Part shown: piece by piece, positions 1,742 through 28,301 of the stretch
How positions within the stretch are numbered: position 1 is the stretch's first letter
How the letters are laid out: each line of letters begins with the position of its first letter
DNA from: an uncultured Micavibrio sp.
GTDB taxonomy: Bacteria; Patescibacteriota; Minisyncoccia; Moranbacterales; GCA-2747515
Assembly: GCA_964427825.1 (NCBI GenBank)
Contig: CAYRUU010000001.1
Location: 1-61,255 of the forward strand
Length of the DNA stretch: 61,255 nt
Reading direction: 5' to 3'
Translations under genes and position numbers: made by a program
Notes under the pieces: generated by a model
What the model saw: only the letters and a program-made list of their open reading frames with translations
What the model was told of the DNA's origin: nothing
The model's database searches: none

Positions 1742-1743
1742 GA

Positions 1744-2385
1744 TCATACGACGCTAATGATGAGAATGGTATCCAGTGCCAGATTTACCGCAAAAACTGC
1801 CCATGCCACGTACATGGTGTGCACACGTCCGCGTGTCCACCAATAGGTGACCACAGGTGCAAAAAGTGGCAGTAGTAGAACGGGTGTGTGAAAATGGTTG
1901 AACAGTAAGATAAAAAACACCATTCCTGCCGCAATCCACGCCGCCGTACGTGAGCGCATTGTCCCATGATACACAAAACCCCATGCAAAAAACGTAAAAA
2001 TCCACAACATAAGCAATGCAAACACTACTTCAAAAAGCATAAACGCTTTGAAACTGTCTGCAATCGCTTGCGGCAGTGTTGCCTGATATGCCTCCACGCC
2101 CCAGCCCAGCTTTACAAGCACCCATCCCAAAAGAATACCCACCACTGTTGCAATGGCAAGTACAAGTCCGTCGCGCAGTGATATGGCATAAGATCCATTG
2201 CCATAGTGTGCGCGGTCTTTGTGGAGCACTACGCGCACAAAAAGCACCGGCAACAGCACCAAAAAAATCGGTACTGCCGTAAAAACTTCACTCTTGTATC
2301 GTCCAATTGGAAAGAAAAAATACAGCGCCACACAACCAAGCGCAAAAATTGTGGAAATCACTTGTGTTTTTGTTTCGTGCGTCAT
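1744..2385 (-). CDS. polytopic integral membrane protein, function unknown
   Basis: 213-aa ORF dominated by hydrophobic helices. Its stop lies 3 nt from the start of the downstream minus-strand gene, an operon-like arrangement. Confidence 0.65.
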   Translation of the reverse strand: MTHETKTQVISTIFALGCVALYFFFPIGRYKSEVFTAVPIFLVLLPVLFVRVVLHKDRAHYGNGSYAISLRDGLVLAIATVVGILLGWVLVKLGWGVEAYQATLPQAIADSFKAFMLFEVVFALLMLWIFTFFAWGFVYHGTMRSRTAAWIAAGMVFFILLFNHFHTPVLLLPLFAPVVTYWWTRGRVHTMYVAWAVFAVNLALDTILIISVV

Positions 2386-2469
2386 AAATCTTTATATCAC
2401 CATTATAGAGTATAGTATACCATATCTTTTACATATTGTGGTATAGTCACCGTTCCGCACAACGGCATT

Positions 2470-3210
2470 CTAATTTTTTCCATGCTTCTTAACAAAATCA
2501 CGGGCTTTTGCCACACGCTTTCTCTCACTCTCCTGTGCGTTATACACAATACCAAGCGAGATCGGTGCAATGTTGATGATCGGAATCATATCAATGATCA
2601 TCAAAAAAATACGCCACCACATGCGCGATCGCTGCTTCTGCACAGGTCCAACCTTCCGCAATTTCACGGTAATATACAATGACGTCAACAACGACATCCC
2701 GGGAATGGGGATAATGTCAATCAAATCGTCCAAAAAAGCAACCATGTAGAGCATTGTCCAATTCATGTTTCGGTATTTTGCAACGATCTTTTCCTGCTTG
2801 TTTAGTTCGCGCAGGATTGATGAAGATTGCTCCGCCCCCCCCTGTTGCTGCGCAATCGCGTCACGCTCATCATGAAGATCTTGTTTGATTTGTGCATCAG
2901 TGCGCGCCTGTGGTTGTGCCTGTGCTGCCACGCGACTGGCTGCAATCCCCTGCGAAACGGACTGCATATACCGCTCATGTGCCATATCCCGCTGTATTTC
3001 ATGTGCAGAAAGAGACCTTGATCGCACAGTGTCTTCTTGCGGTACCCGATCCCGATCATCCGCCTCACGCATAGTACGCTCCGCAGTAGCCTGTGCATAC
3101 CGTGCTTGTACGACGTTTTTTTGCGGATCAGTTGTATTCGTGACACGCGTATTGCGCAATGCACGCATACGTGACCGCTCCTCAGAAGTTGTCGGCTGTG
3201 CAGTTGCCAT
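2470..3210 (-). CDS. membrane protein (hydrophilic N-terminal half, C-terminal TM helices), function unknown
   Basis: 246 aa. The start codon overlaps the stop of the VirB4-like gene at 3210, consistent with translational coupling. A D-x-ID-x-IP-I motif is repeated in the hydrophobic part. Confidence 0.6.
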   Translation of the reverse strand: MATAQPTTSEERSRMRALRNTRVTNTTDPQKNVVQARYAQATAERTMREADDRDRVPQEDTVRSRSLSAHEIQRDMAHERYMQSVSQGIAASRVAAQAQPQARTDAQIKQDLHDERDAIAQQQGGAEQSSSILRELNKQEKIVAKYRNMNWTMLYMVAFLDDLIDIIPIPGMSLLTSLYITVKLRKVGPVQKQRSRMWWRIFLMIIDMIPIINIAPISLGIVYNAQESERKRVAKARDFVKKHGKN

Positions 3211-5060
3211 TATGCCATGCTTTCATCATTTTGCTCGTCAATTTCCTCTTTTGCTCGCTGGATCTCCTCCAATTGACGCGGATCGGATGTAATGATCTGA
3301 TCTTCACTGTATGACGCAATCACTTTGATCGCCGCATGTTTCGGACCAGCAAAGAGAATCCCTTCACCCACATTACTCTCCAAAAGCAGGAATTTCTCAT
3401 GATCCGTCAAAAAAAACGTCTCTGCAATCACATCCACCGACGCCGGCGATTGACGCAAGAGGAGTTGTAATGATGAGTTTGTCACGATTGGCTTGCCGTA
3501 GCGACTCATCATAAAGTCACTCACATCCTGCGTGATCGTCGTCAGTCCCGTATAGTATTTGCGACAGCGTTTGGCAATACCAAACATGAATGCCGCCGCG
3601 TCTTCATTTTGCATCATCACCCACGCTTCGTCCACCGCTACGATGCGTCGTGTCATATTGGTCCGCATCTCATTCCAGATAAACTGCAAGACGATATACA
3701 TGGCAATCGGGCGCAGTTCATCCTCCAAATCACGAATATTAAACACCACCATCTGATTACCGATCTCAATATTGGTCGGTTCATTCAAAAATCCCGAAAA
3801 AATACCCTCCGTATATTTGGACAAACGCTTCGCAAGTGAATCACCGCCATCCATACTGCGCAACACCTCATACAAATCCGACATTGTCGGATAACCGGCA
3901 TGTGGAATATTGCCAAAACGGCTCTTTTCCGAAATATCACGCACCGCATACGCCTCACGGATAGCGCGCTCCAGCACCGTATCTTCCTCCGGTGTTACAC
4001 TGCCCAGCATAATATGCAAAAGTCCAATCAAGCTCGCCACCGCATTGCGAAACACATCTTCCGGACGCTCGTCTTTCGGCACCTGTGGCAACTCAAAGGG
4101 GTTGATGTGCGCACTTGATCCCAGGGAAATGTGAATATACGACCCACCCACCGTTTGACACAGGTGCTTATATTCACTCTCCGGATCAATCACAATCACA
4201 TTGATTCCCATCATCAGCGACCGCAGTAGTTCCAGTTTGACAAAATAACTCTTACCACCACCAGACTTGGCAAAAACCACCATGTTGGCATTCTCCATCT
4301 GAAACCGATCAAAGAGAATTAGGCTGTTGTTGTGGCGATTGATGCCATACAAAATACCTTGATTGGATGATAGGTCCGCCGACACAAAAGGAAACGTTGT
4401 GGACAGTGGCGATGTGTTGAGGTTATTACCCACGTTCAGCATATCATCACCCAGCGGAATGGTTGACTGAAATCCGTGCTCCATGCGCAAAACAGCAGAT
4501 TTAGTATACACCAACTGCGCCTCCAAAATAGCCTCAATTTCATTTTTGCGTCTCTGCAACACGGTTTTTTTGTCGGCATAGATCGTCATATACAACCCAA
4601 AGCGGAAGAAGCGCTCTGTCCCCTGCTGCAAACTCACGCGCAAGCTTTCAATGTTCTGCACCGCCGTCTCCAACATCGGATCACTCACTTTTCCGGATTC
4701 CGCCTCAATATTGATCTGCGAATACACGCGTGCGGCGCTCTTTTTCAAGTTTTTCAACACTTCGCGTGTGTCCGCCGGATGAATAAACATCCCCACATCC
4801 ATGGGAAAATCAATATTGATGATCGGCGAAAACCAATTGTCACTCAAAAAACGCGGATAGGCAACTGTAAAAATGGTCGTAGCAAGCACCTCACCGACCT
4901 GAATATGGTCTGGTTGAATTTGCAACGCGCTCGGTGCAATCAATCCGCGCACCGTTGCCACGCCTTTCTGATAAAATTCCTCGTTGTCAAGAATTTCATT
5001 GCGCGGCTTTGCGGGTTTTTTTTGTGGCGCGGATTGTGCGTCTTTCTTCCTCAAAAACAT
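3210..5060 (-). CDS. virB4: VirB4/TrbE/ConE-family type IV secretion ATPase (central + ATPase domains)
   Basis: 616 aa with Walker A (FAKSGGGKS) and Walker B (RRIVAVDEAW). The length and layout are typical of Gram-positive-type VirB4. Confidence 0.85.
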   Translation of the reverse strand: MFLRKKDAQSAPQKKPAKPRNEILDNEEFYQKGVATVRGLIAPSALQIQPDHIQVGEVLATTIFTVAYPRFLSDNWFSPIINIDFPMDVGMFIHPADTREVLKNLKKSAARVYSQINIEAESGKVSDPMLETAVQNIESLRVSLQQGTERFFRFGLYMTIYADKKTVLQRRKNEIEAILEAQLVYTKSAVLRMEHGFQSTIPLGDDMLNVGNNLNTSPLSTTFPFVSADLSSNQGILYGINRHNNSLILFDRFQMENANMVVFAKSGGGKSYFVKLELLRSLMMGINVIVIDPESEYKHLCQTVGGSYIHISLGSSAHINPFELPQVPKDERPEDVFRNAVASLIGLLHIMLGSVTPEEDTVLERAIREAYAVRDISEKSRFGNIPHAGYPTMSDLYEVLRSMDGGDSLAKRLSKYTEGIFSGFLNEPTNIEIGNQMVVFNIRDLEDELRPIAMYIVLQFIWNEMRTNMTRRIVAVDEAWVMMQNEDAAAFMFGIAKRCRKYYTGLTTITQDVSDFMMSRYGKPIVTNSSLQLLLRQSPASVDVIAETFFLTDHEKFLLLESNVGEGILFAGPKHAAIKVIASYSEDQIITSDPRQLEEIQRAKEEIDEQNDESMA

Positions 5061-5097
5061 AGATGTGTTCCGATTTAGCGATTATAGATCCCCTTTT

Positions 5098-5796
5098 CTA
5101 TCGCAGACCCTCCACTTCTGACTGCTCAATATTCTTAATTGACGACTGTGCAAATTCCGACGGATTATACATACCATAATACAATTCAATCAATTCGTCC
5201 GTGTTGAGTGTGGTGAAACTCAGTCCCGTGCCACCAAGTGCCGCCGACACATGATCCACGCGCTGCCACAGTTGGTTTTTATATGTCTCAAAAAGCGCCT
5301 CACTCTCCACAATTCTGTCTGCCGGCTGGATGAGATTGGACACCTTACCAAGCATGCCCTGATGTGTATCCTCCACAGGTGCGAATGGGATCACGATGTA
5401 GAAAAACTTACTCATGATATTGGTCACCTCCGTCAAATTCTTGATGAAATCTTGATACTCCATGATCTGCAGCTTCAGCAGTTCATTGCGTTGCGCTCGC
5501 GCCCTTTCGCGCAATAGTTCAATATACGGCTGTACGTTCAATTTGCGCGAACTGATCACGATTTGGATCTGAAAATCCAAGGAATTGAGGAAGTTTTGAT
5601 AGGCACCAATAATCGCCCGCTGCTCATCAGAAGACTTCAAATCAAAGTTCACTGTGGATACCAAAAGCACAGCGCGCAATGTGCCGTTTTTAAGTACCAC
5701 CACGCCATCTTTGATGGTTCGGATATCCACGTACTTCAACGTGCTACTGCCTGTTGATGATTCTTTCGGTTTTTTGGATGATGAAAAAAAACTCAT
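5098..5796 (-). CDS. VirB4 N-terminal-domain-like protein encoded as a separate ORF
   Basis: 232 aa. The segment KYVDIRTIKDGVVVLKNGTLRAVLLVSTVNFDLKSSDEQRAIIGAYQNFLNSLDFQIQIVI resembles the N-terminal region of Gram-positive VirB4/TraE proteins. It sits 37 nt upstream of the ATPase ORF, in a different frame. Confidence 0.55.
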   Translation of the reverse strand: MSFFSSSKKPKESSTGSSTLKYVDIRTIKDGVVVLKNGTLRAVLLVSTVNFDLKSSDEQRAIIGAYQNFLNSLDFQIQIVISSRKLNVQPYIELLRERARAQRNELLKLQIMEYQDFIKNLTEVTNIMSKFFYIVIPFAPVEDTHQGMLGKVSNLIQPADRIVESEALFETYKNQLWQRVDHVSAALGGTGLSFTTLNTDELIELYYGMYNPSEFAQSSIKNIEQSEVEGLR

Positions 5797-5799
5797 AGA

Positions 5800-6246
5800 T
5801 TATTTTTGTTTTGCACGTTCACGAATAATTTTTTGGATACGCTCACTGCGATCTACACCGCGCGTGTCCAGTGTTGATGCCAGAGCGGCAACATCCTCTG
5901 TAGACAATTGGCGCTCCTCCTTCTTTTGTAGGCGCTGTTTTTGCTCATCCGTCTTTTTTGGCGGTTTCACCACTTCGTTTTGCCATGTATATACCTTTGG
6001 ACGAAAGAGATATGTAAATCCATAGCCGATGAATGTGATGAGAGCTACACCATTTGGGCGATAAAATGCCAACAGGAACGTCACAATCACTATTGGTACG
6101 GCAGCCAAATAGAATGTCGTTTTGTCTACAAGGTTCCACAGTGCCGCCAAAATCGTGCCGCCGGCAAAAAACCACCCGATATGCTTCCACGTAAACGGTC
6201 CGGCAATTTTATCTTCCACATCAATGTACTGTGGTACAATTTGCAT
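5800..6246 (-). CDS. PrgI/VirB3-like small T4SS membrane protein
   Basis: 148 aa. The N-terminus VPQYIDVEDKIAGPFTWKHIGWFFAGG followed by two hydrophobic helices resembles PrgI-family proteins. It ends 3 nt from the next gene of the block. Confidence 0.6.
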   Translation of the reverse strand: MQIVPQYIDVEDKIAGPFTWKHIGWFFAGGTILAALWNLVDKTTFYLAAVPIVIVTFLLAFYRPNGVALITFIGYGFTYLFRPKVYTWQNEVVKPPKKTDEQKQRLQKKEERQLSTEDVAALASTLDTRGVDRSERIQKIIRERAKQK

Positions 6247-6517
6247 AAACGTTTTTGTTTTATCAGCCTCGTATGTATTTTATCACCAATTGGCAAAAAA
6301 ACAAAACAGTACTGTGATGTGCTTGTGCCATTTTTCGTATTTTATAAAAATGTGTCGGTCTAGATAGCAACACTGTCACCCTGAACTTTTTTTGGGATCT
6401 ATACATTTGTCACCTTGAACAAAACATTTTCATTCCAGGATTGACGCGGGATTTATTAACTTTATCATCCCAGGCAATACACCGTCACTATGCGCGCAAA
6501 AAGATTACCCTTTACAT

Positions 6518-7927
6518 TCAATTTTCCGCACGCGGTGAAAGATATTTCTTTGTTGATTGCAGTGTATGATGCTTTTTGCGCTCAATTGGCAAATTGTGAT
6601 TGGAGCTGAAAGAAATAACCCCATGTACCGATGATGCTTGCACAGCGGGCAAATTGTCCGGCGACTGTACTACTGGCGTCATTGTGCCATAACCGCTCTG
6701 CAAACCAATCGTACGTGGTGCTTCCACACTTTTGTGTTGCGGCGCAGCAACGCGCTGTTGTTTTTGTGTTCCGATGCCAATAGTGTTGCTCTGTGTGACT
6801 TTTTTTGGCATTGACTGCGTTTGTGATGGGCGCTTTTGGGACTCCAGAAGACCCTGTGGTGATCTATGCGTAGATGACGTGCTAGGCACACCCCCCTGCG
6901 GTCGCATCATTGGTGTTTGTCCCCATGTTGGTTGCGCTTCTGCTGGTTTCTGTATCTGTTGCGTCTGCGCCTGTGGCTGTGTCGCCTGTTGTAGTGGCTG
7001 TGGCGGTTTTTGCACATACATGCTCCGCTGCTGTGGCACAAATCCCCCCGATGACCGCACGCTCTGCACGGCATTGCGGATCGTATAATGCGCCGTATCG
7101 GTTGGAAAATACTCATTGCGACGCACCACACCCTCGCGACTCTGCATCCTATCTCGCACATCTTCCTCCTTCTGTGGTGCCACCACATGTGAATCATCAT
7201 CCATTGTCTGCGGCTGTGCATCAAAAACAATCATACGCTGATCACGATCAATGGTCAGTGGCACACCCTCATCGCGTGACTTGAGCATCATCGCCAACTT
7301 TTGCCGATCATCCTGCGACAATCCCCGCGTCGGCTCCGCGCGAAACACAAATTCCCCACGTTCAATCGCCGTGTGCTTACTTGCGCCCAACACCCTCTCA
7401 TACACCATAATCCAATTTTTCACACTTGGCCTCAGTGGTTGTGGCAACGATCGCATGAAAATCTGCACGCCCGTCACCGTTTGATCCTTGATCGCGGGGT
7501 ATTGACGGAGTGCCTGCTCCAAAGGTAGTGGCACCAGATGGCGTTGCGGTTGTTGTGGTTCACTTTCCTCTTCCTCATCGCGCTGTGGTACAGGTGTGAT
7601 GTTTACTATTTCTCGCAACATACGCAATCCCTCCTGCGGCGGAATCCCACACACTTGCGCAATATGCTGCACAAACGCATCCTCCGACACTTCGCGGAAA
7701 AAATATCTACGCACACTGCGGGACAATTCCTCCGTCTGCGCGTCATTGAGGTGGTATTTTTGCTCAATAGCAAAGATGTATCGCGCAATTTCTCGCGACT
7801 TAAGAATATCCTGTACCTTTTCTGGCAGTGCGTGAAAGTATTCCCATAGACGGATGTTTTCATTAGTAAAAAAATCCTTTCGTGAAAAACCCGCCATCAT
7901 TGGTAGATATTTTTGATCATCCTCCAT
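6518..7927 (-). CDS. hypothetical protein with a Pro/Gln-rich, probably disordered C-terminal half
   Basis: 469-aa ORF between the VirB6-like and PrgI-like genes. No recognisable catalytic motif. Confidence 0.6.
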   Translation of the reverse strand: MEDDQKYLPMMAGFSRKDFFTNENIRLWEYFHALPEKVQDILKSREIARYIFAIEQKYHLNDAQTEELSRSVRRYFFREVSEDAFVQHIAQVCGIPPQEGLRMLREIVNITPVPQRDEEEESEPQQPQRHLVPLPLEQALRQYPAIKDQTVTGVQIFMRSLPQPLRPSVKNWIMVYERVLGASKHTAIERGEFVFRAEPTRGLSQDDRQKLAMMLKSRDEGVPLTIDRDQRMIVFDAQPQTMDDDSHVVAPQKEEDVRDRMQSREGVVRRNEYFPTDTAHYTIRNAVQSVRSSGGFVPQQRSMYVQKPPQPLQQATQPQAQTQQIQKPAEAQPTWGQTPMMRPQGGVPSTSSTHRSPQGLLESQKRPSQTQSMPKKVTQSNTIGIGTQKQQRVAAPQHKSVEAPRTIGLQSGYGTMTPVVQSPDNLPAVQASSVHGVISFSSNHNLPIERKKHHTLQSTKKYLSPRAEN

Positions 7928-7964
7928 ATACCCCTCTCATAATAATAAATCAGTGTAATAAAAT

Positions 7965-9986
7965 CTACGGCGCAACACCCATGGGATTTGGTGAGGTATA
8001 CCGCATTTCAGCTTCAGCAAAAGCCTGTCTCTGCTCATTTGATTGTGCATCAAGAAATATCTGCTGACCACGTGCAGTGAGTTGACCATGTCTACTTGAC
8101 ATGGCAACGTAGGATGCTTGTTGCCTATTATATTCATCAGATTCCACAGCCGCCCTCGTATCACGATATGCTGCTGCTGCACGTTGCTTTGCTAGCACTT
8201 CCGCATTCATACCACCAAACACATTCTTCGCCATGTCATTGATTTCATTTTGTGATAGCGGTACAAAAGTACTCCCACCACCTGCCGCAACCCTTTGACG
8301 TCTTGCCTCTTCACGAGAAATATCCATTTCCACAACCTTGTGTCCATAACCACTGTTACGCATCTTCTTCTTTACAGCCTTTTGCGTTTCAGTATCAAGT
8401 TTATCAAATGTCTTGATGAGTTCATCAACCTCCTCATTTAACAAGTCTACTTTCTTTTCCGAGAGAACTTGTGCTTTTGCTTCATCTTCAACATCCGTTG
8501 CCGTATTAAGTGGTGCTTCCCGCATCTTCTTTTTTTCTTCCTCTATACGCCTACCCTTACTACGTGCCAACGCATCCTCATCCCCACCCCATCCCGTAAT
8601 TTTTCCAGCAGCCCTTGCTAATCTACCGGAATCCGGCTTCTGACCAATACTAGTCCCAAACTGCTGTACACCACTGCTAAATTTATCTTTTGTCGCCGCA
8701 AATCTCTTCCTTCTCTCATCTTCAGCATTTTTAAAGCGCTGTCCAACACCGCTCACAATACCTGTTGCGGCAGCAATGGGTCTATCAATGCGTGTAACCG
8801 ATGCGGCACCCTTACTCATACCAAGCGCCGCACTCTTACCAAACCCCTGTAACCGCCCCCTCGCTTTTGTTGCCATACCCAAAACCGCACTAGACGCCCC
8901 ATCCCCCATAGCACCCACTGTCATAATGCCCGTCCACAAAATAATCAACGACACCACATAAGTCAACACATTCGGAACCACACCATTCTTGTTCGCTGCC
9001 TCCATAGCCCCCTTAAAATACCCATCGCCCATGCCCTGCAAAATACTCACGGAAAGAACAAGGACAAACAGTAAAATCGGTCCTGTGGATAAGTATTTAA
9101 TAAACTGATTCCACCACTTATTTGCATAGGAGCTTGTCATGGGAAATGCCGCCATTGTAAACCCTGCCGATGCAAAAACCAAAAGCAATGCCAAAGCAAC
9201 AACACGAATCACAAGCAAGAGTGCAACTGCCATCACCACAATCAAGAAGAGGAGACCGATAATGATCCCCATAAAAATATTTGTCCATGAATCCGGTGCC
9301 CCCGCTGAATTTACATCCTTTCCAACAAGAATATTTGCAAATCCCGTACCACTACCAATCGTACTCATCAATGCACTTCCCGATCGTATATCACCACCTC
9401 CAACACCACCTGCGTCCATGATCCACATCATAGTCACATTGGACACATCGATCAACACCCGTGCAATCGGCCACGAAAAATTCACCAAAAGCGCCATCAC
9501 CACAATCATCACCCACGTATTGCGAATATGATAGCGTGAAATCTGAAAGACAGTGCAAAACGCCGAATAGAGAAGGAAAAAAATAAAGAACATATTAAGA
9601 AAATCCCGCACCGTCTTCCACCCCATATACACACCGGGATTATTCCGAATTAAGTCCATAAATGTCGGCTTCAAGGACCAATCAATCAAACCCACCGCCA
9701 ATGCAATAAGATTAGCAATGAGTTGTACGAAGCCGAAAAATAACTCCTTTAACATATTACCAAAATCTGGTAAGGGGTTTAGTTTGGATAAATTTCCCAG
9801 ATCAGGTTTTCCTGTGTCGGGTATCGTATATAAGCCACCAGGTTGTGTGAAACCCTGAAATTGTCCCATATTCGACCCCGTAGATCCCTGAGACCATACT
9901 ACTTCAGTAAAAGATAAATGAGTAGTAATAGTTAATAAAAAAAATAATATATATATATATATTTTATTTTTATAAATAGGACTCAT
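7965..9986 (-). CDS. TrbL/VirB6-like polytopic membrane protein with a charged coiled-coil C-terminal tail
   Basis: 673 aa with a signal-like N-terminus, at least 6 long hydrophobic helices in the first 400 aa, then a Lys/Glu/Ala-rich tail. Its position next to VirB4/PrgI supports the call. Confidence 0.55.
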   Translation of the reverse strand: MSPIYKNKIYIYILFFLLTITTHLSFTEVVWSQGSTGSNMGQFQGFTQPGGLYTIPDTGKPDLGNLSKLNPLPDFGNMLKELFFGFVQLIANLIALAVGLIDWSLKPTFMDLIRNNPGVYMGWKTVRDFLNMFFIFFLLYSAFCTVFQISRYHIRNTWVMIVVMALLVNFSWPIARVLIDVSNVTMMWIMDAGGVGGGDIRSGSALMSTIGSGTGFANILVGKDVNSAGAPDSWTNIFMGIIIGLLFLIVVMAVALLLVIRVVALALLLVFASAGFTMAAFPMTSSYANKWWNQFIKYLSTGPILLFVLVLSVSILQGMGDGYFKGAMEAANKNGVVPNVLTYVVSLIILWTGIMTVGAMGDGASSAVLGMATKARGRLQGFGKSAALGMSKGAASVTRIDRPIAAATGIVSGVGQRFKNAEDERRKRFAATKDKFSSGVQQFGTSIGQKPDSGRLARAAGKITGWGGDEDALARSKGRRIEEEKKKMREAPLNTATDVEDEAKAQVLSEKKVDLLNEEVDELIKTFDKLDTETQKAVKKKMRNSGYGHKVVEMDISREEARRQRVAAGGGSTFVPLSQNEINDMAKNVFGGMNAEVLAKQRAAAAYRDTRAAVESDEYNRQQASYVAMSSRHGQLTARGQQIFLDAQSNEQRQAFAEAEMRYTSPNPMGVAP

Positions 9987-10078
9987 ACTTTTACAATCAA
10001 CTCAATATCTAATATATAAAATATAATAACATAAAAACCCCAATATTAGAAATATCAGGGTTTATAATATAGCTATCC

Positions 10079-10561
10079 CTATTCATCATGACCGAAATTA
10101 TTTGCCATCTTAATGAGAGTACTTCTTCCAACGGGATATCTCTCCATTGCTTCAATATTATTCTTGAGGGCCATCACATACAGTACCGACTGCTCAAGAA
10201 CGGAGTAGGTACCATCATTTTCCAGAAATACCATGTATGCCGTTGCCATAGCATCACCATATCCACTACAGTTCAATATCCACTCCATTGCAATATAGTG
10301 GTAATTAAGATAATTACTATAGCCAATCGTATCGATAAACTTAATAGACTGCACTTTAATCTCACCTTTACTTGTAACAGCAAGGTAATCCACAATACGC
10401 TTTTTAATCTCATTGCGTATTGTCACAGATTTGGAAATATCCTTCACGACTGCCGTATTGGAAATAATAACATCCTGCTCTTTTTTCCCTGGACACCCCG
10501 CGAGAATCCCTGTAATAATGACACACACACATCCAATGATAACCCTATGTATTATATTCAT
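10079..10561 (-). CDS. lipoprotein, function unknown
   Basis: 160 aa with a signal peptide ending in the lipobox ILAGC. The gene is AT-rich. Confidence 0.6.
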   Translation of the reverse strand: MNIIHRVIIGCVCVIITGILAGCPGKKEQDVIISNTAVVKDISKSVTIRNEIKKRIVDYLAVTSKGEIKVQSIKFIDTIGYSNYLNYHYIAMEWILNCSGYGDAMATAYMVFLENDGTYSVLEQSVLYVMALKNNIEAMERYPVGRSTLIKMANNFGHDE

Positions 10562-11041
10562 GACTCCCTCCCAAGATTTTCATGAAGAAAAGAAAATCCC
10601 AACCGTATCACAAAATACTCTTGTATTTTTAATGAACGATTGGGATCCGTTTATCCCATAGAAGTTACCGATGGTATATTCTGTAACTTTTATGGAAATT
10701 ACGGATATCGGAGTATTATAGCATTGTTTTTATTTCCTGTCAATAGTCCTTTTTTCTTTTATATATTGTGTTTTTTATTATTGTATCATTTCACTGTATC
10801 ACTCCAACCGAGATGTGTAGGACTTAATACTACTGTCGCCAGACACGGAGAATTTTTTCCTTTTACAGTATAGATATGATCATGCGTCGGACATCGTCAA
10901 TGGAATCATCTATGTCTAATATACCACGTAATCCTCTGTTATGTAAGTAGATAACCTCTTTATGGCAGTACGTATATCTCACTTATCTATTTAATAACTA
11001 ATACTCTATAATTATATAAATCTATTATTAGTTATTAGTAC

Positions 11042-11279
11042 TGTGGATAAGTAGATAAGTGGGGAAAATCTCTCAATGATCGGGAAAAAGTGTCGTGGAG
11101 GATTGTTTACGAATTGACGGCGCGTTGTGGGGAAAACGGAGGTGAAATATTTATGGATGCATTACTCACAGATTTCACTGAAAATACACAATGTTGTACA
11201 GGGTTAGTGATATAGTTATACAGGAATTATATGGAATTTATCCACAGGTTACTGTGGATAAGATACAAAAATGTGAATA
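11042..11279. promoter_or_regulatory. DnaA-box cluster beside an AT-rich inverted-repeat tract (candidate oriC or DnaA-controlled site)
   Basis: Perfect boxes: TGTGGATAA at 11042-11050, TTATCCACA at 11238-11246 and TGTGGATAA at 11253-11261. A 1-mismatch box, TGTGAATAA, lies at 11271-11279. The tract 10990-11040 is almost pure A/T and carries the inverted repeat TAATAACTAATA/TATTAGTTATTA. Confidence 0.5.
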
Positions 11280-11486
11280 AGTTGTGGAGGTGTGTATAGC
11301 CATTCTATTGCGCGATGATTGAAAGAGGGAGGATAATATTGTATTGATTTTTGTGGGATGATGTACTATACTGGGAATTTGTGGGTTCGTATAGTATAAA
11401 CTGAAGGTGTCAAAATACATTCGACATGGAAAGAGGGAATCGCGGTGTGGTAATGCTTTTTTATATAAACAAGTGAAAAATAGCGT

Positions 11487-15955: not shown

Positions 15956-16175
15956 TCCATCATGTCATGTTGTGAAAGTACGTACCTTTCGCTCTCTGAT
16001 CAACCTTCTATCACAAGTATACCATTTTTGCAGCATCGCGTCAAAGGTAGTATGTTGTTTTTGTTTTAAACAAAGGGTTTTTGTGTGTTTATTGACAATA
16101 CAAAAGTGCATGTATGTAAAATGTGAAAAAAAGAAAGAAAAACTCTTTCAGAAAAAATAGATTATTATACACAGG

Positions 16176-16214
16176 TTATCCACAATTCCACAACTTATCC
16201 ACATCTTTGGATAA
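16176..16214. promoter_or_regulatory. second DnaA-box cluster
   Basis: Perfect TTATCCACA at 16176-16184 and 16195-16203, plus an inverted 1-mismatch box TTTGGATAA at 16206-16214. Confidence 0.5.
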
Positions 16215-16278: not shown

Positions 16279-17412
16279 CTAATAGGTAAAGTCTGGAGAT
16301 GGTTCTTGGTAGGCTGTTTTTTCATGTAGTGTGTCAAAGATGGTGCGTAAGGTGTCTTTTGATGTGCCCACAAGCCACTGATTGTTGAATACGGCATAAT
16401 CAATAGAATATGTCTCCTCCTCATTGAGATTAGCGTAACGCAGCGGCTTGTTGTAGTAGACATTATCGCGGAAAATAATGGGATGAGCTGACACGGTATC
16501 GGATGGAAGGAATAGCGATAGCGCCTGCGGGAGAAGTTGCTCGTGCATTGCGAGTGTGGACTGTAGTGTGATGGGATCTTTGGTATTTACTACGAGACCG
16601 AAACGTATACCGAGCGTTGGGTCGGCATGGGCATATAGTTCAAAGTTTCTGTCAAGAACAGACAGGATGTCTTCCGTTAGACCGAGTTGTGCTGCAATAG
16701 TAAATTGATGAAAAGAGACGGGCGCTGATGCTGTATCGGTGACAATGAAGATGATGGGTTTTGTGGGAGATTGTTGCGGAAGCTTTGTGCGGATTGTGGA
16801 TAGTTGTGTGGTGATGTCGGTTGCGACGGAAGGGTTGTTGATATCAATTGTAAAATAGTTGGGCATGTCTAGTGAATAGGTTGACGGTTCTGGAATGGTG
16901 ACTGCGGGTGTCGTGGGTAGTTCTATAGCGGGAGGTGTTTCCACCGCATCGGAGGGTGTGCTGTCTGTAGGCTTTAGGAAAATGTAGTAGTACACACCGC
17001 CTGCAACAAAGAGGATGAGAAGCACGGTGATGGTGATGACGATGATTTTTCTACCAGGTGATGCGCCCTTTTCCTGCGGCAATTCAGGATTTTTGAGATC
17101 GGCGGTAATATCAGAGATCTCATAATTGATCTTTTCTGGCCCATCACTTTGAGATGGCGCAAAAGTGTTTTTGCCAATACCGTCTGCTTCCGAAGTGGGT
17201 GTATCGGAAAGAAAGGGGTTTGGCTCGGAAGACTGTGCCGGTGCCGGTGTTGCGCGCAAAGGTGTGTTTTGCGGGAGTTGCTGCGTCTGTTTTGGTGCTG
17301 TCTTGCGCGTGGCGTTGTCGCTTTGCATTGTGTGAACGTCAAAAGTTGTGGGGGAAGATTTTTGATTTGTGTTTTTCATAGTGGATGTATGAAACAAAAG
17401 ACATTGCGTCAT
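16279..17412 (-). CDS. membrane-anchored hypothetical protein (disordered N-terminus, one TM helix, extracytoplasmic C-domain)
   Basis: 377-aa ORF. The start may instead be the internal MKNTNQ at 17379. TM helix: IIVITITVLLILFVAGGVYYYIF. Confidence 0.65.
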   Translation of the reverse strand: MTQCLLFHTSTMKNTNQKSSPTTFDVHTMQSDNATRKTAPKQTQQLPQNTPLRATPAPAQSSEPNPFLSDTPTSEADGIGKNTFAPSQSDGPEKINYEISDITADLKNPELPQEKGASPGRKIIVITITVLLILFVAGGVYYYIFLKPTDSTPSDAVETPPAIELPTTPAVTIPEPSTYSLDMPNYFTIDINNPSVATDITTQLSTIRTKLPQQSPTKPIIFIVTDTASAPVSFHQFTIAAQLGLTEDILSVLDRNFELYAHADPTLGIRFGLVVNTKDPITLQSTLAMHEQLLPQALSLFLPSDTVSAHPIIFRDNVYYNKPLRYANLNEEETYSIDYAVFNNQWLVGTSKDTLRTIFDTLHEKTAYQEPSPDFTY

Positions 17413-23969: not shown

Positions 23970-23998
23970 AAAATAGTGTATTAATCAATAAAAATATG

Positions 23999-24070
23999 TG
24001 CCCTTGGGAAGAATCGAACTTCCATCTAATCCTTAGGAGTGATTTGTTCTATCCATTGAACTACAAGGGC
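23999..24070 (-). tRNA. tRNA-Arg (CCT)
   Basis: Acceptor GCCCTTG/CAAGGGC, anticodon loop CTCCTAA (A:G mismatch at 31:39), T-arm GGAAG-TTCGATT-CTTCC. Confidence 0.8.
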
Positions 24071-24474
24071 ATGCAGGGGCGTCTTCCTCCCATTGTAGCG
24101 GTTTTTGGGAGATTTTCAACTGGTAGAGAATTTATTAAAATATATTATAAACAATATGTCAAGTTTATACTTCCCTACGGCAACAATTGTTCCACGTGGA
24201 ACAAGGCCAGGCGGCTTGCAGTGCTCTTTTGATGCAAAAAATATTAGTAAAATGTTCCACGTAGAACAATGTATACTAGCCTTACTCTGTGGGATCTCAA
24301 TTTTTATTATGGGCAAGAATTATTTTGGAAGATTTTTGCGTCAAAGAGGTATTTTTTAATGTTCCACATGGAACATTAAGGCATAGCACAGATATTTTCT
24401 CGTAAAAGATCACAAAACATAGTTCGTAATACGCTGCTATGATTGTTCCACGTGGAACAGTGGACTCCTTTCAC

Positions 24475-24567
24475 AATATTCATACCATGCCGAGCTTGTT
24501 TCGGCATTCCTGTTATAACGTGAATTCCGGAGCACATCCTGAGTGATACAGTATTTTTACACAAAAC
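24475..24567 (+). repeat. copy A of a ~100-nt interspersed element inside the palindrome array
   Basis: Aligns with copies B and C. Shared blocks are ATTCATAyCAT.., GTTTC.GG.A and TCCGGA.CACATC..GA.TGA..C..TATT.TTACrCA.AA. Starts 16 nt after the palindrome at 24444. Confidence 0.6.
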
Positions 24568-25254
24568 TGAAGTAGTATTTAATATACTTTTCATCCTTAT
24601 CTCACGTGGAACAATTGAAAGGTCAAAACATGATACACTGCAGTTTTTTGTAAGTTTAATCCTATATTTTGCCAATGTAGTAGATCATATAAGGAAAAAT
24701 CATACAAAAAAATGTACAAATAGGCTTTTTGATAAGAGCTAACCTTAGCGTACTACAACTGTTCCACGTGGAACACGAAAAATGCTTATTTTGTGATTTT
24801 TTGATAAATGCTGTAAAAATGTTCCACGTGGAACAAAAACAGGTAACGTACTATGCTTTTTTGATGAAAAGATACCATTAAATTGTTCCACGTGGAACAA
24901 TTGGCAAAAAACACTTCTATAAACGACATTTTTAATACCCTAGATGATTCAAAGAGGGTTGTTATGCTTTTTGTATGCGACCAGATACCGCCCCCATGTT
25001 CCATGTGGAACATGGGAAAAGTAGGCGTTTTTTAAGATGTTTATTTGTAGATCTCTTAAATAAAAACCTCAATTGTTCCACGTGGAACAAAAACAGGTGT
25101 TATATTATGCAATTTTGATTCGAAAATACCCCTAAAATGTTCCACATGGAACATTTTAGGGGTTATTATGGTAGAAATGATCGTATATTTATTATAAAAT
25201 GCCAAAATAGATGTCTCTGGCGATGTTCCACGTGGAGCATCGCGTCTGTTTAAT

Positions 25255-25356
25255 CATATTCATATCATACTGAACGTTTCTGGGCAGTTTTTCCGGTGGT
25301 ATAAAGCCTGAATTTCGAACCATATACTGGAATGATGCAATATTCTTACGCACAAC
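25255..25356 (+). repeat. copy B of the ~100-nt interspersed element
   Basis: Starts 16 nt after the palindrome at 25224, in the same orientation as A and C. Confidence 0.6.
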
Positions 25357-25570
25357 CATAGAAACAAAGGAAAAAAGAAGTATTTATATTATGTAGATAT
25401 TCCTGTTTCTGCGAAAAGTTCCACGTGGAACAATGTGGTATGGAATATTTATATGGGAGCTGTTTTTAATGAGGGATTTTTGTTGGAGTGATATAGTTTT
25501 TTATGAGGAATATTTTATGTGCAGAATTATTGTTCCACGTGGAACAATGTGGTCGTCCAATAGTATTTAG

Positions 25571-25666
25571 CGATGTCACACTGAATATGTTTCGGTATCT
25601 CCTTAATATAGTGAGAGTATGGACTCCGGATCACATCTAGAATGACGCGATATTATTACGCAAAAT
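25571..25666 (+). repeat. copy C of the ~100-nt interspersed element
   Basis: Starts 25 nt after the palindrome at 25531, in the same orientation as A and B. Confidence 0.6.
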
Positions 25667-25803
25667 TGTATTATATTGTGCTGCCCGTCTTTGTTCCACA
25701 TGGAACATTAGGTATCTTAGGAAAGCAGTGGTGTGTTTTTTGACGTCCTGAAAGACACGAGAGAAGCAAGAAAAACGCTCTTGTGGTACGATATACTATA
25801 AAA

Positions 25804-25819
25804 CCACAATATATAGTAT
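25804..25819. promoter_or_regulatory. NrdR-box-like AT-rich palindrome upstream of nrdD
   Basis: CCACAATATATAGTAT matches about 14/16 of the NrdR box pattern acaCwAtATaTwGtgt as I recall it. It lies ~30 nt upstream of the predicted -35. Confidence 0.3.
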
Positions 25820-25847
25820 GTTTGTATATCCTGTGGATAGGTGCGTC

Positions 25848-25876
25848 TTGCACAGGTTTTGTGGAGGTGCTACAAT
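25848..25876 (+). promoter_or_regulatory. probable nrdD promoter (extended -10)
   Basis: TTGCAC, 17-nt spacer, TGcTACAAT, 69 nt upstream of the nrdD ATG. Confidence 0.6.
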
Positions 25877-25944
25877 GAAAATGTTCAAAAGTTGAAAAGG
25901 GGTAAGATCTATTTCTTGCTTTTTTCTTTTACGCAAAAACCCAT

Positions 25945-28062
25945 ATGATGACGGTAAATAAAATCAAAAAAAGAAACGGTACGATTGTTGACTTTGACAT
26001 ACGCAAAATTGAACGCGCCATCACGAAGGCGGCGGAGGCATCGCGTCCGACAAAGAAAATGGATACCCAAAAGGTTGCGCACTATGCGGTCACGCGTATC
26101 GGTAAGAAGTATGGCGACGCGATTCCTACCGTGGAGCAGGTGCAAGATGTCGTGGAGGAGGCGTTGGTCAAGCACAATTATCCACAGGTGGCAAAGGATT
26201 ACATCTTGTACCGTCAAAAACGCACAGAAATTCGCGAAGATCGCAATGTGATGGTGGATGTGGAGAAAACAATGGGGGAATACCTCAATCAGCTGGATTG
26301 GCGTGTTAATGCGAACTCAAATCAAGGATATTCGTTGGGCGGCATGATCCTCAACACGGCAGGTAAGGTGACGGCAAATTACTGGTTGTCGCACATTTAT
26401 CCCAAAGCGGTGGGTGAGGCGCATCGTAATGCCGATATGCACATCCATGATTTGGATATGTTTTCTGGTTATTGTGCAGGATGGAGCTTGCGCTCTCTTT
26501 TGGAGGAGGGTTTTAACGGTGTGGACAACAAAATTGAGTCTAATCCTCCAAAACACCTCTCCAGTGCTGTGGCACAAATGGTGAATTTTTTGGGGACGCT
26601 GCAAAATGAGTGGGCCGGTGCGCAGGCATTTTCCAGTTTTGACACCTACTTGGCGCCGTTCGTCAAGAAAAAAGAGATGGAAATTCGTGCTGCTATTAGA
26701 AAATACGGCATGACATTTCCTACGCCAAAGAAAAAGAAGGACTATATTGAAAGTTCTGTGTATAATTACGTCTACCAAAATATGCAGTCTTTTGTGTTTA
26801 ATCTCAATATTCCGTCACGCTGGGGAACGCAGACGCCATTTACTAATATTACGTTGGACTGGGTGTGTCCGGATGATCTCAAGAAAAAGACGCTGCTTTT
26901 GGGCGGTAAGCCATTTACACATACCTTTGGTGAGCTGCAAAAAGAGATGGATATGATCAATAAGGCTTTTATTGACGTGATGATGGCGGGGGACTCCAAG
27001 GGGCGAACATTTACCTTCCCAATTCCAACCTACAACATCACTAAGGATTTTGACTGGGAGGATGAGAAAGTGTTACCGCTGTTTGATATGACGGCGAAAT
27101 ATGGCACACCGTACTTTCAGAATTTCATCAATTCCGATCTTGATCCAGGGGATGTGCGATCTATGTGCTGCCGCTTGCAATTGGATCTCAAGGAATTACG
27201 CAAGCGCGGCGGTGGACTGTTCGGTTCTGCGGAGATGACGGGATCAATCGGTGTGGTTACTATTAATTTAGCACGTATTGGTAAGATGGCGGCGGGCGAC
27301 AAGGAAGTGTTTTTTGAACGCGTAACGTATTTGATGGAGCTTGCCAAGACATCGCTGGAAATGAAGAGAGAGGTGATTCAAAAGTGGATTGACCGCGGAC
27401 TTTTCCCCTATACACGACGCTATTTAGGTACACTCAAAAACCACTTTTCCACAATCGGTGTTAATGGTATGAATGAAGCGATTCGTAATTTCACCAATGA
27501 TCAAGAAAACATTGCATCACCGTTCGGACAGGATTTTGCTAAGGAGGTATTGGACTATATTCGTGAAAAAATGTCTGTTTTCCAAGAAGAAACGGGAAAT
27601 TTGTACAATCTGGAGGCGACGCCTGGCGAGGGGACGACCTATCGCTTTGCAAAAGAAGATCAAAAGCGTTTCAAGGATATTTTTCAGGCTGGTACAAAAG
27701 AGGCCCCCTACTACACCAACTCCAGTCAGTTGCCGGTGGGCTATACAGACGATATTTTTGAGGCGCTTGACCTACAGGATGATCTGCAGAAGAAGTATAC
27801 AGGCGGTACGGTGTTTCATGGTTATATGAGTGAGCGCATCAGTTCGGGGAAGGTGTGTGCGCAGTTGATTAAAAAGATTCTCACGAACTATCGGTTGCCG
27901 TATATTACCATCACGCCGACGTTCTCTATTTGCCCAAAACACGGCTATTTGGCGGGTGAATATGATTTTTGCCCGAAGTGCGATTTGGATCTTGGCATAC
28001 GTAAAAAGCATTGCGATAGTGAATTCCGCGGGCGCTATGAGAGTCCGCATGCGGAGCGATAG
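25945..28062 (+). CDS. nrdD: anaerobic (class III) ribonucleoside-triphosphate reductase, large part, lacking the glycyl-radical C-terminus
   Basis: 705 aa with an N-terminal ATP-cone (VNKIKKRNGTIVDFDIRKI), a NrdD core and a C-terminal zinc-ribbon region (ICPKHG...FCPKC). The ORF stops before any RV[CM]GY motif. Confidence 0.9.
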   Translation: MMTVNKIKKRNGTIVDFDIRKIERAITKAAEASRPTKKMDTQKVAHYAVTRIGKKYGDAIPTVEQVQDVVEEALVKHNYPQVAKDYILYRQKRTEIREDRNVMVDVEKTMGEYLNQLDWRVNANSNQGYSLGGMILNTAGKVTANYWLSHIYPKAVGEAHRNADMHIHDLDMFSGYCAGWSLRSLLEEGFNGVDNKIESNPPKHLSSAVAQMVNFLGTLQNEWAGAQAFSSFDTYLAPFVKKKEMEIRAAIRKYGMTFPTPKKKKDYIESSVYNYVYQNMQSFVFNLNIPSRWGTQTPFTNITLDWVCPDDLKKKTLLLGGKPFTHTFGELQKEMDMINKAFIDVMMAGDSKGRTFTFPIPTYNITKDFDWEDEKVLPLFDMTAKYGTPYFQNFINSDLDPGDVRSMCCRLQLDLKELRKRGGGLFGSAEMTGSIGVVTINLARIGKMAAGDKEVFFERVTYLMELAKTSLEMKREVIQKWIDRGLFPYTRRYLGTLKNHFSTIGVNGMNEAIRNFTNDQENIASPFGQDFAKEVLDYIREKMSVFQEETGNLYNLEATPGEGTTYRFAKEDQKRFKDIFQAGTKEAPYYTNSSQLPVGYTDDIFEALDLQDDLQKKYTGGTVFHGYMSERISSGKVCAQLIKKILTNYRLPYITITPTFSICPKHGYLAGEYDFCPKCDLDLGIRKKHCDSEFRGRYESPHAER

Positions 28063-28112
28063 AAGTGTTGACGAACCATGTTATACTATAAGTAATTAAT
28101 AAAAATAAAACT

Positions 28113-28301
28113 ATGGCATCACAAGTGCTAAAAGGGGATCATGAGGGGCGCACACCGTGCGAGGTGTGGACACGTGTAATGGGATACTTTCGTCCCGTGT
28201 CGTTTTTCAACACAGGAAAGAAATCCGAGCACTATTCACGCAAGCATTTTCAAGAGTGCGTGATCGCCAACGAAAGTTTTACCAATAAGTATGCTGATTA
28301 G
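28113..28301 (+). CDS. stand-alone glycyl-radical domain of NrdD (62 aa)
   Basis: Contains EVWTRVMGYFRPVSFFNTGKKSEHYSRKHF, the equivalent of the NrdD C-terminal RVCGYLG..N.GK..E motif. It is in a different frame from nrdD; an in-frame stop at 28089 precedes its ATG. Confidence 0.75.
   Translation: MASQVLKGDHEGRTPCEVWTRVMGYFRPVSFFNTGKKSEHYSRKHFQECVIANESFTNKYAD

What the first reader, a model, noticed from the sequence alone, without database searches (positions are those of the whole stretch)
24071..25944. Dense array of 15 parS-like 16-bp palindromes in a 1.9-kb gene-free gap (centromere-like locus)
No credible ORF lies between tRNA-Arg (23999-24070) and the nrdD promoter. The gap instead holds 15 copies of TGTTCCACGTGGAACA. 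Seven copies are exact (starts 24188, 24444, 24760, 24820, 24884, 25074, 25531). Seven have one mismatch (24253, 24360, 24997, 25138, 25224, 25417, 25692). One is a degenerate half-site (24598). Spacing is 60-193 bp. The motif differs at one position from the canonical ParB site TGTTNCACGTGAAACA. It is a symmetrised version of the TGTTCCAC half-site found in the Bacillus subtilis spo0J parS. Chromosomal parS sites are normally single and scattered over tens to hundreds of kb, often inside genes. An iterated intergenic array like this resembles plasmid centromeres such as F sopC, which has 12 x 43-bp units each carrying a 16-bp inverted repeat. The array lies ~13 kb from a DnaA-box cluster. No parA or parB gene is in the window. 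Alternative explanations are a multi-operator site for an unknown dimeric regulator, or a transcribed hairpin array.
Basis: partly seen in the sequence, partly recalled or inferred. Interest (0 to 1): 0.9.

Follow-up and report, generated by a model that had tools for sequence, protein, structure and literature searches.

The report
Origin-proximal parS centromere array, Moranbacteria
A 1.5-kb non-coding stretch of a tiny uncultured (CPR, Moranbacteria) bacterium carries 14-15 copies of a 16-base palindrome already proven in other bacteria to be the ParB chromosome-segregation site, so it is most likely an ordinary but unusually dense chromosomal centromere.

Summary
There are 7 exact and 7 one-mismatch copies of TGTTCCACGTGGAACA, plus one 3-mismatch half-site, all between 24188 and 25707. 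None occurs elsewhere in the 61 kb at up to 2 mismatches (chance expectation 0.04).

The gap is non-coding and has low GC. It was built by duplicating site-containing modules: palindromes are 96% identical and spacers 54%.

The window is a contig of a Candidatus Moraniibacteriota (Patescibacteria/CPR) MAG. The same tRNA-Arg/nrdD gap holds 7-12 copies in every relative whose NrdD is at least 80% identical, although the spacers are unalignable and genome GC ranges from 31 to 47%.

The array lies 13-14.5 kb from a conserved oriC candidate, marked by a DnaA-box cluster and a GC-skew flip.

The exact 16-mer is the experimentally validated parS of Pseudomonas and Bdellovibrio, and nearly that of Myxococcus (22-24 clustered sites). 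In a GTDB scan, 61 of 120 loci with paired copies carried parA/parB, with a median distance of 197 bp. Arrays of 14-17 sites abut parAB in Bacillota and Acidobacteriota.

So the parS-centromere reading is supported, but dense chromosomal parS arrays are not new. The particular points are CPR membership, detachment from parAB, and the conserved position.

The clade's ParB gene could not be located. That is the main gap.

The parts
24188..25707 (.). parS array: 14 full sites and 1 half-site in 1,520 bp of non-coding, low-GC (0.35) DNA. It is built from about 60-65-bp and about 165-210-bp duplicated modules.
24188..24203 (.). parS site 1, exact TGTTCCACGTGGAACA
24253..24268 (.). parS site 2, 1 mismatch (G11>A)
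24360..24375 (.). parS site 3, 1 mismatch (G9>A, central CpG)
24444..24459 (.). parS site 4, exact; starts long module A
24598..24613 (.). degenerate site (3 mismatches, right half intact); ends long module A
24760..24775 (.). parS site 5, exact
24820..24835 (.). parS site 6, exact
24884..24899 (.). parS site 7, exact
24997..25012 (.). parS site 8, 1 mismatch (C8>T, central CpG)
25074..25089 (.). parS site 9, exact
25138..25153 (.). parS site 10, 1 mismatch (G9>A)
25224..25239 (.). parS site 11, 1 mismatch (A14>G); starts long module B
25417..25432 (.). parS site 12, 1 mismatch (T1>A); ends long module B
25531..25546 (.). parS site 13, exact; starts long module C
25692..25707 (.). parS site 14, 1 mismatch (G9>A); ends long module C, about 240 bp upstream of the nrdD start codon
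10600..11450 (.). Context: oriC candidate. It has perfect DnaA boxes at 11042, 11238 and 11253, an AT-rich stretch, and a GC-skew sign change. The array lies 13-14.5 kb to its right. The same arrangement is conserved in relatives.

Best explanation
The gap between tRNA-Arg and nrdD is the chromosomal centromere (parS cluster) of a Candidatus Moraniibacteriota (CPR) bacterium.

Inferred mechanism, from what is established for ParABS systems:
1. Dimers of a canonical ParB (ParB_N CTPase + HTH_ParB) recognise each 16-bp palindrome.
2. They bind CTP, close into clamps and slide onto flanking DNA.
3. Fourteen to fifteen loading sites within 1.5 kb act as one high-capacity loading zone. This nucleates a single partition complex about 13 kb from oriC.
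4. That complex is segregated by ParA and/or serves as the SMC loading point.

Shown here:
- the identity of the motif with validated parS;
- confinement of the sites to one locus;
- purifying selection on the palindromes but not on the spacers;
- conservation of the position across a clade;
- proximity to the origin;
- the tight association of the same 16-mer arrays with parAB in other phyla.

Inferred only: that this organism encodes ParB and that ParB binds here.

The array grew and shrinks by duplication and deletion of site-bearing modules. This explains the copy-number differences between relatives (7 to 14).
For: Motif:
- The exact TGTTCCACGTGGAACA is parS2/parS3 of P. aeruginosa, the parS of P. 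putida, and the parS_Bb oligo used in CTPase assays for B. bacteriovorus ParB.
- M. xanthus has 22-24 sites with consensus TGTTCCACGTGGAACG, clustered upstream of parAB about 30 kb from ori.

Association with ParAB:
- In the GTDB scan for two copies 40-70 bp apart, 61 of 120 loci have parA/parB inside the locus of 8 kb or less. In 56 of these 61, the nearest site is within 500 bp of a par gene, and the median is 197 bp.
- Pfam confirms ParB_N + HTH_ParB + ParB_C and ParA next to arrays of 17 sites (L092, Bacillota), 14 sites (L078, Acidobacteriaceae) and 8 sites (L125, Heliophilum).

Selection:
- Within duplicated modules the palindromes are 96% identical and the spacers 54%.
- The logo falls to background immediately outside the 16 bp.
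- Between relatives only the tRNA, the nrdD leader and the palindromes align.

Conservation:
- The same rbfA-tRNA-Arg-[array]-nrdD arrangement has 7, 7, 8, 12, at least 5 and at least 3 sites in L213/214, L215/216, L217, L218/219 (complete genome CP175956.1), L133 and L070.
- No sites occur elsewhere in those loci of about 20 kb, despite locus GC of 31-42%.

Origin:
- GC skew flips from negative to positive exactly at a DnaA-box cluster upstream of rluD in the window and in three relatives.
- The array is 8-21 kb from that cluster.
Against: - No ParB or ParA gene was found in the window or in any fetched Moranbacteria locus. Together these cover roughly -20 kb to +50 kb around the oriC candidate.
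- The rest of the genome could not be searched, so the cognate protein is unverified.
- The library search found no paper treating ParB/parS in Patescibacteria.
- Positions 5 and 12, degenerate in the classical TGTTNCACGTGNAACA consensus, are near-invariant here: C5 in 55 of 56 and G12 in 55 of 56 sites across the clade. This could mean homogenisation by duplication, or a reader with slightly different specificity.
- More distant Moranbacteria (NrdD 74% identical or less) have no sites at this locus, so the position is clade-specific.
Confidence: 0.8

Rival explanations
1. The palindromes are a multi-operator array for a non-ParB dimeric DNA-binding protein, for example a regulator of nrdD or a nucleoid-associated protein that has adopted this palindrome.
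For: No ParB gene was located in the clade. The last site is about 140 bp upstream of the best nrdD promoter match. C5/G12 are invariant, unlike the classical degenerate consensus.
Against: - The 16-mer is identical to validated parS, and arrays of it abut parAB in other phyla.
- nrdD already has its own conserved NrdR-box-like palindrome and promoter region, separate from the array.
- Fourteen operators spread over 1.5 kb, up to 1.7 kb from the promoter, is not regulator-like.
- No conserved HTH gene flanks the array.
Confidence: 0.07
2. The array is a relic or cargo centromere of an integrated plasmid or phage-plasmid, not the chromosome's own centromere.
For: Pairs or triplets of the same 16-mer occur on 11 IMG/VR contigs. 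The tandem-module architecture resembles plasmid centromeres. The array sits next to a tRNA gene, a common integration site.
Against: - No integrase, replication or partition genes are adjacent.
- The flanking genes (rbfA, nrnA-like DHH, nrdDG) are core and syntenic in all relatives with NrdD 80-93% identical.
- The position is fixed relative to oriC across the clade.
- The apparent 'ICE' (T4SS genes) to the left is itself a conserved core cluster.
Confidence: 0.05
3. The copies are a neutral or selfish tandem or minisatellite-like repeat (REP/MITE-like) with no sequence-specific function.
For: Copy number varies from 7 to 14 between close relatives. Assemblies break inside the array (L133, L070).
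Against: - The copies are confined to one locus in the window and in every relative.
- The 16 bp are conserved at 96% while the spacers have decayed to 54% and are unalignable between relatives.
- The 16-mer is retained in genomes of 31-36% GC.
- There are no terminal repeats or target duplications.
Confidence: 0.05
4. The region is a transcribed array of RNA hairpins: an sRNA, terminator, CRISPR-like or TIGR-like guide array.
For: Each palindrome can form a short hairpin. Two palindromes score as terminator-like sites. TIGR arrays are reported in CPR bacteria (PMC12045711 abstract).
Against: - Spacing is irregular at 60-193 bp.
- No cas or tas gene is nearby.
- No Rfam family reaches its threshold.
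- The promoter-like count is not above shuffles, 11 against 8.7.
- Substitutions are one-sided and break pairing (for example G11>A six times) with no compensatory changes.
- Only the DNA palindrome is conserved, not the flanks.
Confidence: 0.03

Closest known systems
Myxococcus xanthus chromosomal parS cluster (22-24 sites upstream of parAB, about 30 kb from ori; PMC3778016, PMC7022226)
   Same: Many copies of an almost identical 16-mer (TGTTCCACGTGGAACG against ...ACA) are packed into one origin-proximal chromosomal region that serves a single ParB complex.
   Different: The Myxococcus cluster lies directly upstream of parAB. Here no parAB lies within about -20 to +50 kb of oriC. The organism is a CPR bacterium with a genome of about 1.2-1.5 Mb in complete relatives. 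The array is fully intergenic and visibly built from tandem modules.
Pseudomonas aeruginosa parS1-4 cluster near oriC (PMC4368675)
   Same: The perfect palindrome is identical (parS2/parS3 = TGTTCCACGTGGAACA). The sites are origin-proximal and clustered.
   Different: P. aeruginosa has only four origin-proximal sites. The window has 14-15 sites in 1.5 kb of gene-free DNA.
Dense parS arrays abutting parAB found here in GTDB genomes (L092 Bacillota, 17 sites in 2.2 kb; L078 Acidobacteriaceae, 14 in 1.7 kb; L125 Heliophilum fasciatum, 8)
   Same: Same 16-mer, comparable number and density, and tandem or periodic spacing.
   Different: Those arrays are within a few hundred bp of parA/parB. The Moranbacteria array is unlinked to parAB and sits between tRNA-Arg and nrdD.
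F plasmid sopC (12 tandem 43-bp units, each with a 16-bp inverted repeat; from general knowledge)
   Same: An iterated centromere made of repeat units, each carrying one ParB-family binding palindrome. Relatives L219 and L133 show regular units of about 60 bp.
   Different: sopC is plasmid-borne, adjacent to sopAB, has a fixed unit length and a different palindrome recognised by SopB. The window array is chromosomal, irregularly spaced (60-193 bp) and uses the chromosomal parS sequence.

Membership tests
Chromosomal ParABS centromere (parS) | 16-bp palindrome matching the parS consensus tGTTNCACGTGAAACa or a validated variant | tested here: met
   There are 7 exact and 7 one-mismatch copies of TGTTCCACGTGGAACA. 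This exact sequence is parS2/3 of P. aeruginosa and the parS of P. putida and B. bacteriovorus.
Chromosomal ParABS centromere (parS) | Location in the origin-proximal part of the chromosome | tested here: met
   The array is 13-14.5 kb from a DnaA-box cluster where GC skew changes sign. The same relation, at 8-21 kb, holds in relatives.
Chromosomal ParABS centromere (parS) | Sites restricted to a few loci rather than dispersed genome-wide | tested here: inconclusive
   There are no sites outside the gap in the 61-kb window, nor in about 150 kb of loci from relatives. Whole genomes could not be scanned.
Chromosomal ParABS centromere (parS) | Purifying selection on the palindrome relative to surrounding DNA | tested here: met
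   Palindromes are 96% identical and spacers 54% within modules. Between relatives only the palindromes align. The logo has sharp boundaries.
Chromosomal ParABS centromere (parS) | Cognate ParB (ParB_N CTPase + HTH_ParB) encoded in the same genome | not testable with these tools
   ParB is absent from the window and from all fetched Moranbacteria loci.
Chromosomal ParABS centromere (parS) | ParB binding, CTP-dependent loading and spreading at the sites | not testable with these tools
   This requires EMSA/BLI, a CTPase assay or ChIP-seq.
Plasmid iterated centromere (sopC / type Ia) | On a plasmid or prophage, adjacent to its own parAB/sopAB operon, with fixed-length tandem units | tested here: not met
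   The flanks are core chromosomal genes, syntenic across relatives. There is no par operon. Spacing is irregular at 60-193 bp.
REP / MITE dispersed repeats | Many copies dispersed through intergenic regions of the genome | tested here: not met
   All copies lie in one gap, and half-sites outside it are at or below chance.
CRISPR or TIGR guide arrays | Regular repeat-spacer period with adjacent cas or tas genes | tested here: not met
   Spacing is irregular. No such genes were found by Pfam in the window. There is no Rfam match.
Noc-binding sites (NBS) | Palindrome TATTTCCCGGGAAATA (general knowledge; Noc/NBS context) | tested here: not met
   The sequence differs at the specificity positions. 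The sites match parS, not NBS.

The most novel reading that the evidence does not exclude
This Moranbacteria clade may have no canonical ParB, or only a ParB encoded far from the origin. In the first case the canonical parS palindrome would be read by a different protein, or used only for SMC loading. A CPR lineage would then have kept and amplified the universal centromere sequence while replacing its reader. The evidence does not exclude this, because no ParB or ParA was found within about -20 to +50 kb of oriC and the rest of the genome was not searchable.
Probability: 0.07. Interest if true: 0.8.

Novelty: new member of a known kind. Interest (0 to 1): 0.35.

Why it matters
- It gives a concrete, testable handle on chromosome segregation in CPR/Patescibacteria. 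Full-text searches of the paper library found no paper treating parS/ParB in this group.
- It shows that the universal parS sequence is retained and amplified in a reduced-genome lineage.
- Together with the adjacent DnaA-box/GC-skew site, it marks the origin region in Moranbacteria MAGs, where dnaA is not next to oriC.
- It explains why assemblies of these genomes break at this locus (L133, L070).
- The by-product survey shows that dense parS arrays of 5 to 17 sites recur in several phyla. This corrects the textbook picture of a few scattered chromosomal sites.

Tried and rejected
1. Hunt for the clade's ParB/ParA.
- HMMs built from 49 ParB and 53 ParA sequences of the fetched loci found nothing in the window or in any CPR locus.
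- I walked outwards from oriC through relatives, using RluD and VirB4 orthologues.
- This reached about 20 kb left of oriC and showed only T4SS-like and giant proteins.

2. Literature on ParB in CPR gave nothing usable.

3. Coding potential of the gap. The ORFs of 84 and 99 aa are not conserved.

4. RNA hypotheses.
- Rfam was searched at gathering threshold and at E of 1 or less. Only the tRNA passed, and the other hits are far below threshold.
- Promoter-like sites are not enriched, 11 against 8.7 expected. Terminator-like sites number 5 against 1.4 expected, but two are just the palindromes themselves.

5. I first read the T4SS genes at 1-10.5 kb as an ICE that might explain the GC-skew flip. 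This was rejected because the cluster is conserved next to the DnaA boxes in all relatives.

6. A locally encoded regulator. The small conserved neighbouring proteins have no DNA-binding domain hit.

7. An early guess that the organism was a Firmicute, based on PrgI/TcpE hits and the rbfA-DHH gene order, was replaced by Moraniibacteriota from source names of homologues.
Full report
**1. Observation.**
A search for TGTTCCACGTGGAACA finds seven perfect and seven one-mismatch copies between 24188 and 25707. It finds nothing else in the 61,255-bp window at up to 2 mismatches. The chance expectation is 0.04, and 0 of 100 shuffles reached 14.

At 3 mismatches the half-site at 24598-24613 appears (TATCTCACGTGGAACA), plus one chance-level hit at 59638. 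Outside the gap the 7-mer half-site occurs only four times.

The flanks are tRNA-Arg(CCT) at 23998-24070 on the minus strand and nrdD at 25945-28062, followed by nrdG.

**2. The gap is non-coding.**
- GC is 0.35 in the array against 0.47 for the window.
- The only ORFs are 84 and 99 aa with TTG starts, and they have no counterpart in relatives.
- No Rfam family other than the tRNA reaches its threshold, even in a permissive search.
- Promoter-like sites are not enriched, 11 against 8.7 expected.

**3. Anatomy.**
The array is made of duplicated, site-bearing modules of two kinds.
- Five short units of about 60-65 bp have the form parS-AAAAACAGG...ATGCTTTTTTGATG...TAAAA-parS.
- Three long units of about 165-210 bp are each bounded by two sites.

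Within the short units the palindrome columns are 96% identical pairwise, whereas the spacer columns are 54%.

A position count over 14 window sites and 42 sites from relatives shows information dropping to background immediately outside the 16 bp. Only a weak A/T preference remains at the adjoining bases.

The substitutions seen are mostly transitions, concentrated at the central CpG (C8>T, G9>A) and at G11>A. There are no compensatory changes on the opposite arm. This is the pattern of a double-stranded DNA binding site, not of an RNA stem.

**4. Organism and conservation.**
The window's NrdD is an NCBI/Logan protein on a 61,255-bp contig. Its homologues at 80-83% identity are labelled Candidatus Moraniibacteriota or Parcubacteria group. 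The window is therefore a contig of a CPR (Patescibacteria) MAG.

Every relative with NrdD at least 80% identical has the same rbfA - tRNA-Arg - [array] - nrdD arrangement:

| Locus | NrdD identity | Sites | Note |
|---|---|---|---|
| L213/L214 | 93% | 7 | |
| L215/L216 | 83% | 7 | all exact |
| L217 | 82% | 8 | 1.55-Mb contig |
| L218/L219 | 80% | 12 | about 60-bp period; complete genome CP175956.1 |
| L133 | 82% | at least 5 | contig starts inside the array |
| L070 | not determined | at least 3 | contig ends inside the array |

No site occurs elsewhere in these loci of about 20 kb.

In blastn between the window gap and the relatives, only the tRNA, the nrdD promoter/leader and the palindromes align. 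The relatives' loci have 31-42% GC. Moranbacteria with NrdD 74% identical or less have no site at this locus.

**5. Origin.**
- Perfect DnaA boxes cluster at 11042-11261, upstream of rluD.
- GC skew changes from about -0.2 to about +0.2 exactly there, and stays positive over minus-strand genes further right.
- The same flip at the same DnaA-box cluster is seen in three relatives. L219 has five perfect boxes within 110 bp.

The array is 13-14.5 kb from this oriC candidate in the window, and 8-21 kb in relatives. The T4SS-like genes to the left (VirB4-like, TraC-like, PrgI, TrbL-like) are conserved in all relatives. They are therefore core genes, not an ICE.

**6. What the 16-mer is.**
- The exact palindrome is parS2/parS3 of P. 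aeruginosa.
- It is the parS listed for P. putida.
- It is the parS_Bb oligonucleotide used in ParB NTPase assays for Bdellovibrio.
- M. xanthus carries 22-24 copies of TGTTCCACGTGGAACG clustered upstream of parAB, about 30 kb from ori.

Its results:
- 61 of the 120 loci contain parA and/or parB within the locus of 8 kb or less.
- In 56 of those 61, the nearest site is within 500 bp of a par gene, and the median is 197 bp.
- 19 loci have 5 or more sites.
- Arrays of 17, 14 and 8 sites directly abut Pfam-confirmed ParA and ParB (ParB_N + HTH_ParB + ParB_C) in a Bacillota MAG, an Acidobacteriaceae MAG and Heliophilum fasciatum.

Viral contigs carry only pairs or triplets of the site.

**7. The missing piece.**
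Neither Pfam on about 58 window ORFs nor ParA/ParB HMMs against all six-frame ORFs of the window and every CPR locus found a partition protein.

Walking outwards in relatives reached about 20 kb left of oriC without finding one. In this clade the array is therefore not linked to parAB. Full-text searches found no paper treating ParB/parS in Patescibacteria.

**8. Mechanism (inferred).**
By analogy with characterised ParABS systems, ParB dimers nucleate at each palindrome, bind CTP, close into clamps and slide onto neighbouring DNA. Many adjacent loading sites would raise the loading rate and concentrate ParB into a single ori-proximal partition complex. That complex would be used for ParA-driven segregation and/or SMC loading.

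Copy number evolves by unequal exchange between modules. Selection keeps the 16 bp intact while the spacers drift.

**9. Rivals.**
- A non-ParB operator array is unlikely. The motif's identity and its association with parAB elsewhere argue against it, and nrdD has its own conserved NrdR-box-like element.
- An integrated-plasmid relic is contradicted by core synteny.
- A neutral or selfish repeat is contradicted by locus confinement and differential conservation.
- An RNA hairpin, CRISPR or TIGR array is contradicted by irregular spacing, the absence of associated genes, the absence of Rfam matches and one-sided substitutions.

**10. Verdict.**
This is a real, selected, origin-proximal parS array, a new member of a known kind.

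It is denser than in the classical model organisms, but comparable to Myxococcus and to arrays found here in several phyla. Its particular features are:
- CPR membership;
- detachment from parAB;
- a fixed tRNA-Arg/nrdD position within one Moranbacteria clade;
- a visible modular duplication history.

Noticed in passing
window 25945-28301: nrdD appears to be split. The 705-aa NrdD ends just after its Zn-ribbon (CPKC). A separate 62-aa ORF at 28113-28301, with its own ATG 50 nt downstream, carries the glycyl-radical motif (TRVMGYFRPV). The same 62-63-aa ORF with a PF13597 hit is called after nrdD in every relative, so it is not an assembly error.
   Followed up: partly
window ~10600-11450: oriC candidate without an adjacent dnaA. 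It has three perfect DnaA boxes and one 1-mismatch box (11042-11280), an AT-rich stretch at about 10960-11040, and a sharp GC-skew sign change. It is conserved upstream of rluD in relatives (five perfect boxes in L219, 1109-1219). No dnaA, dnaN or parAB lies within about -20 to +50 kb.
   Followed up: partly
window 16165-16214: A second tight DnaA-box cluster: four boxes in 50 bp, two of them perfect, overlapping the 3' end of the 377-aa unknown gene at 16279-17412 (minus strand). It is conserved in L213 (614, 644) and L220 (14403, 14433). Across the whole window, DnaA-box-like 9-mers number 50 against 17 expected.
   Followed up: no
window 1-10561: A T4SS-like cluster: VirB4/TraG P-loop at 3210-5060, a TraC-like gene, PrgI at 5800-6246, and large membrane proteins at 6518-9986 (TrbL-like in relatives). 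It looks like an ICE but is conserved in the same place next to oriC in all Moranbacteria relatives, with VirB4 83-95% identical. In relatives it is followed by three proteins of about 1000 aa and a T4SS pilin.
   Followed up: partly
window 25787-25840; L133 470-545: The nrdD promoter region carries an NrdR-box-like palindrome (CCACAATATATAGTAT; a perfect CCACAATATATTGTGG in L133). Immediately downstream is a DnaA-box-like CTGTGGATA. Both are conserved between the window and the 82% relative, which suggests NrdR and possibly DnaA control of nrdD.
   Followed up: no
L133 1-30 and L070 7144-7303: Metagenome and MAG contigs of relatives begin or end inside the parS array. This repeat is therefore a recurrent assembly breakpoint in Moranbacteria genomes.
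   Followed up: yes
L092, L078, L035, L026, L075, L125 and others (GTDB loci): Dense arrays of the identical 16-mer (5-17 sites) recur in Bacillota, Acidobacteriota, Bacteroidia, Actinomycetota and Bdellovibrionales genomes, mostly abutting parAB. Heliophilum fasciatum has 39-bp-period arrays on both sides of parAB.
   Followed up: partly
L219 1917-2891 (CP175956.1), absent from the window: In some relatives a 324-aa protein with an N-terminal winged-helix (HTH_5/HTH_24) and a PRTase-like C-terminal part sits between the DnaA-box cluster and rluD. The window lacks this gene.
   Followed up: no
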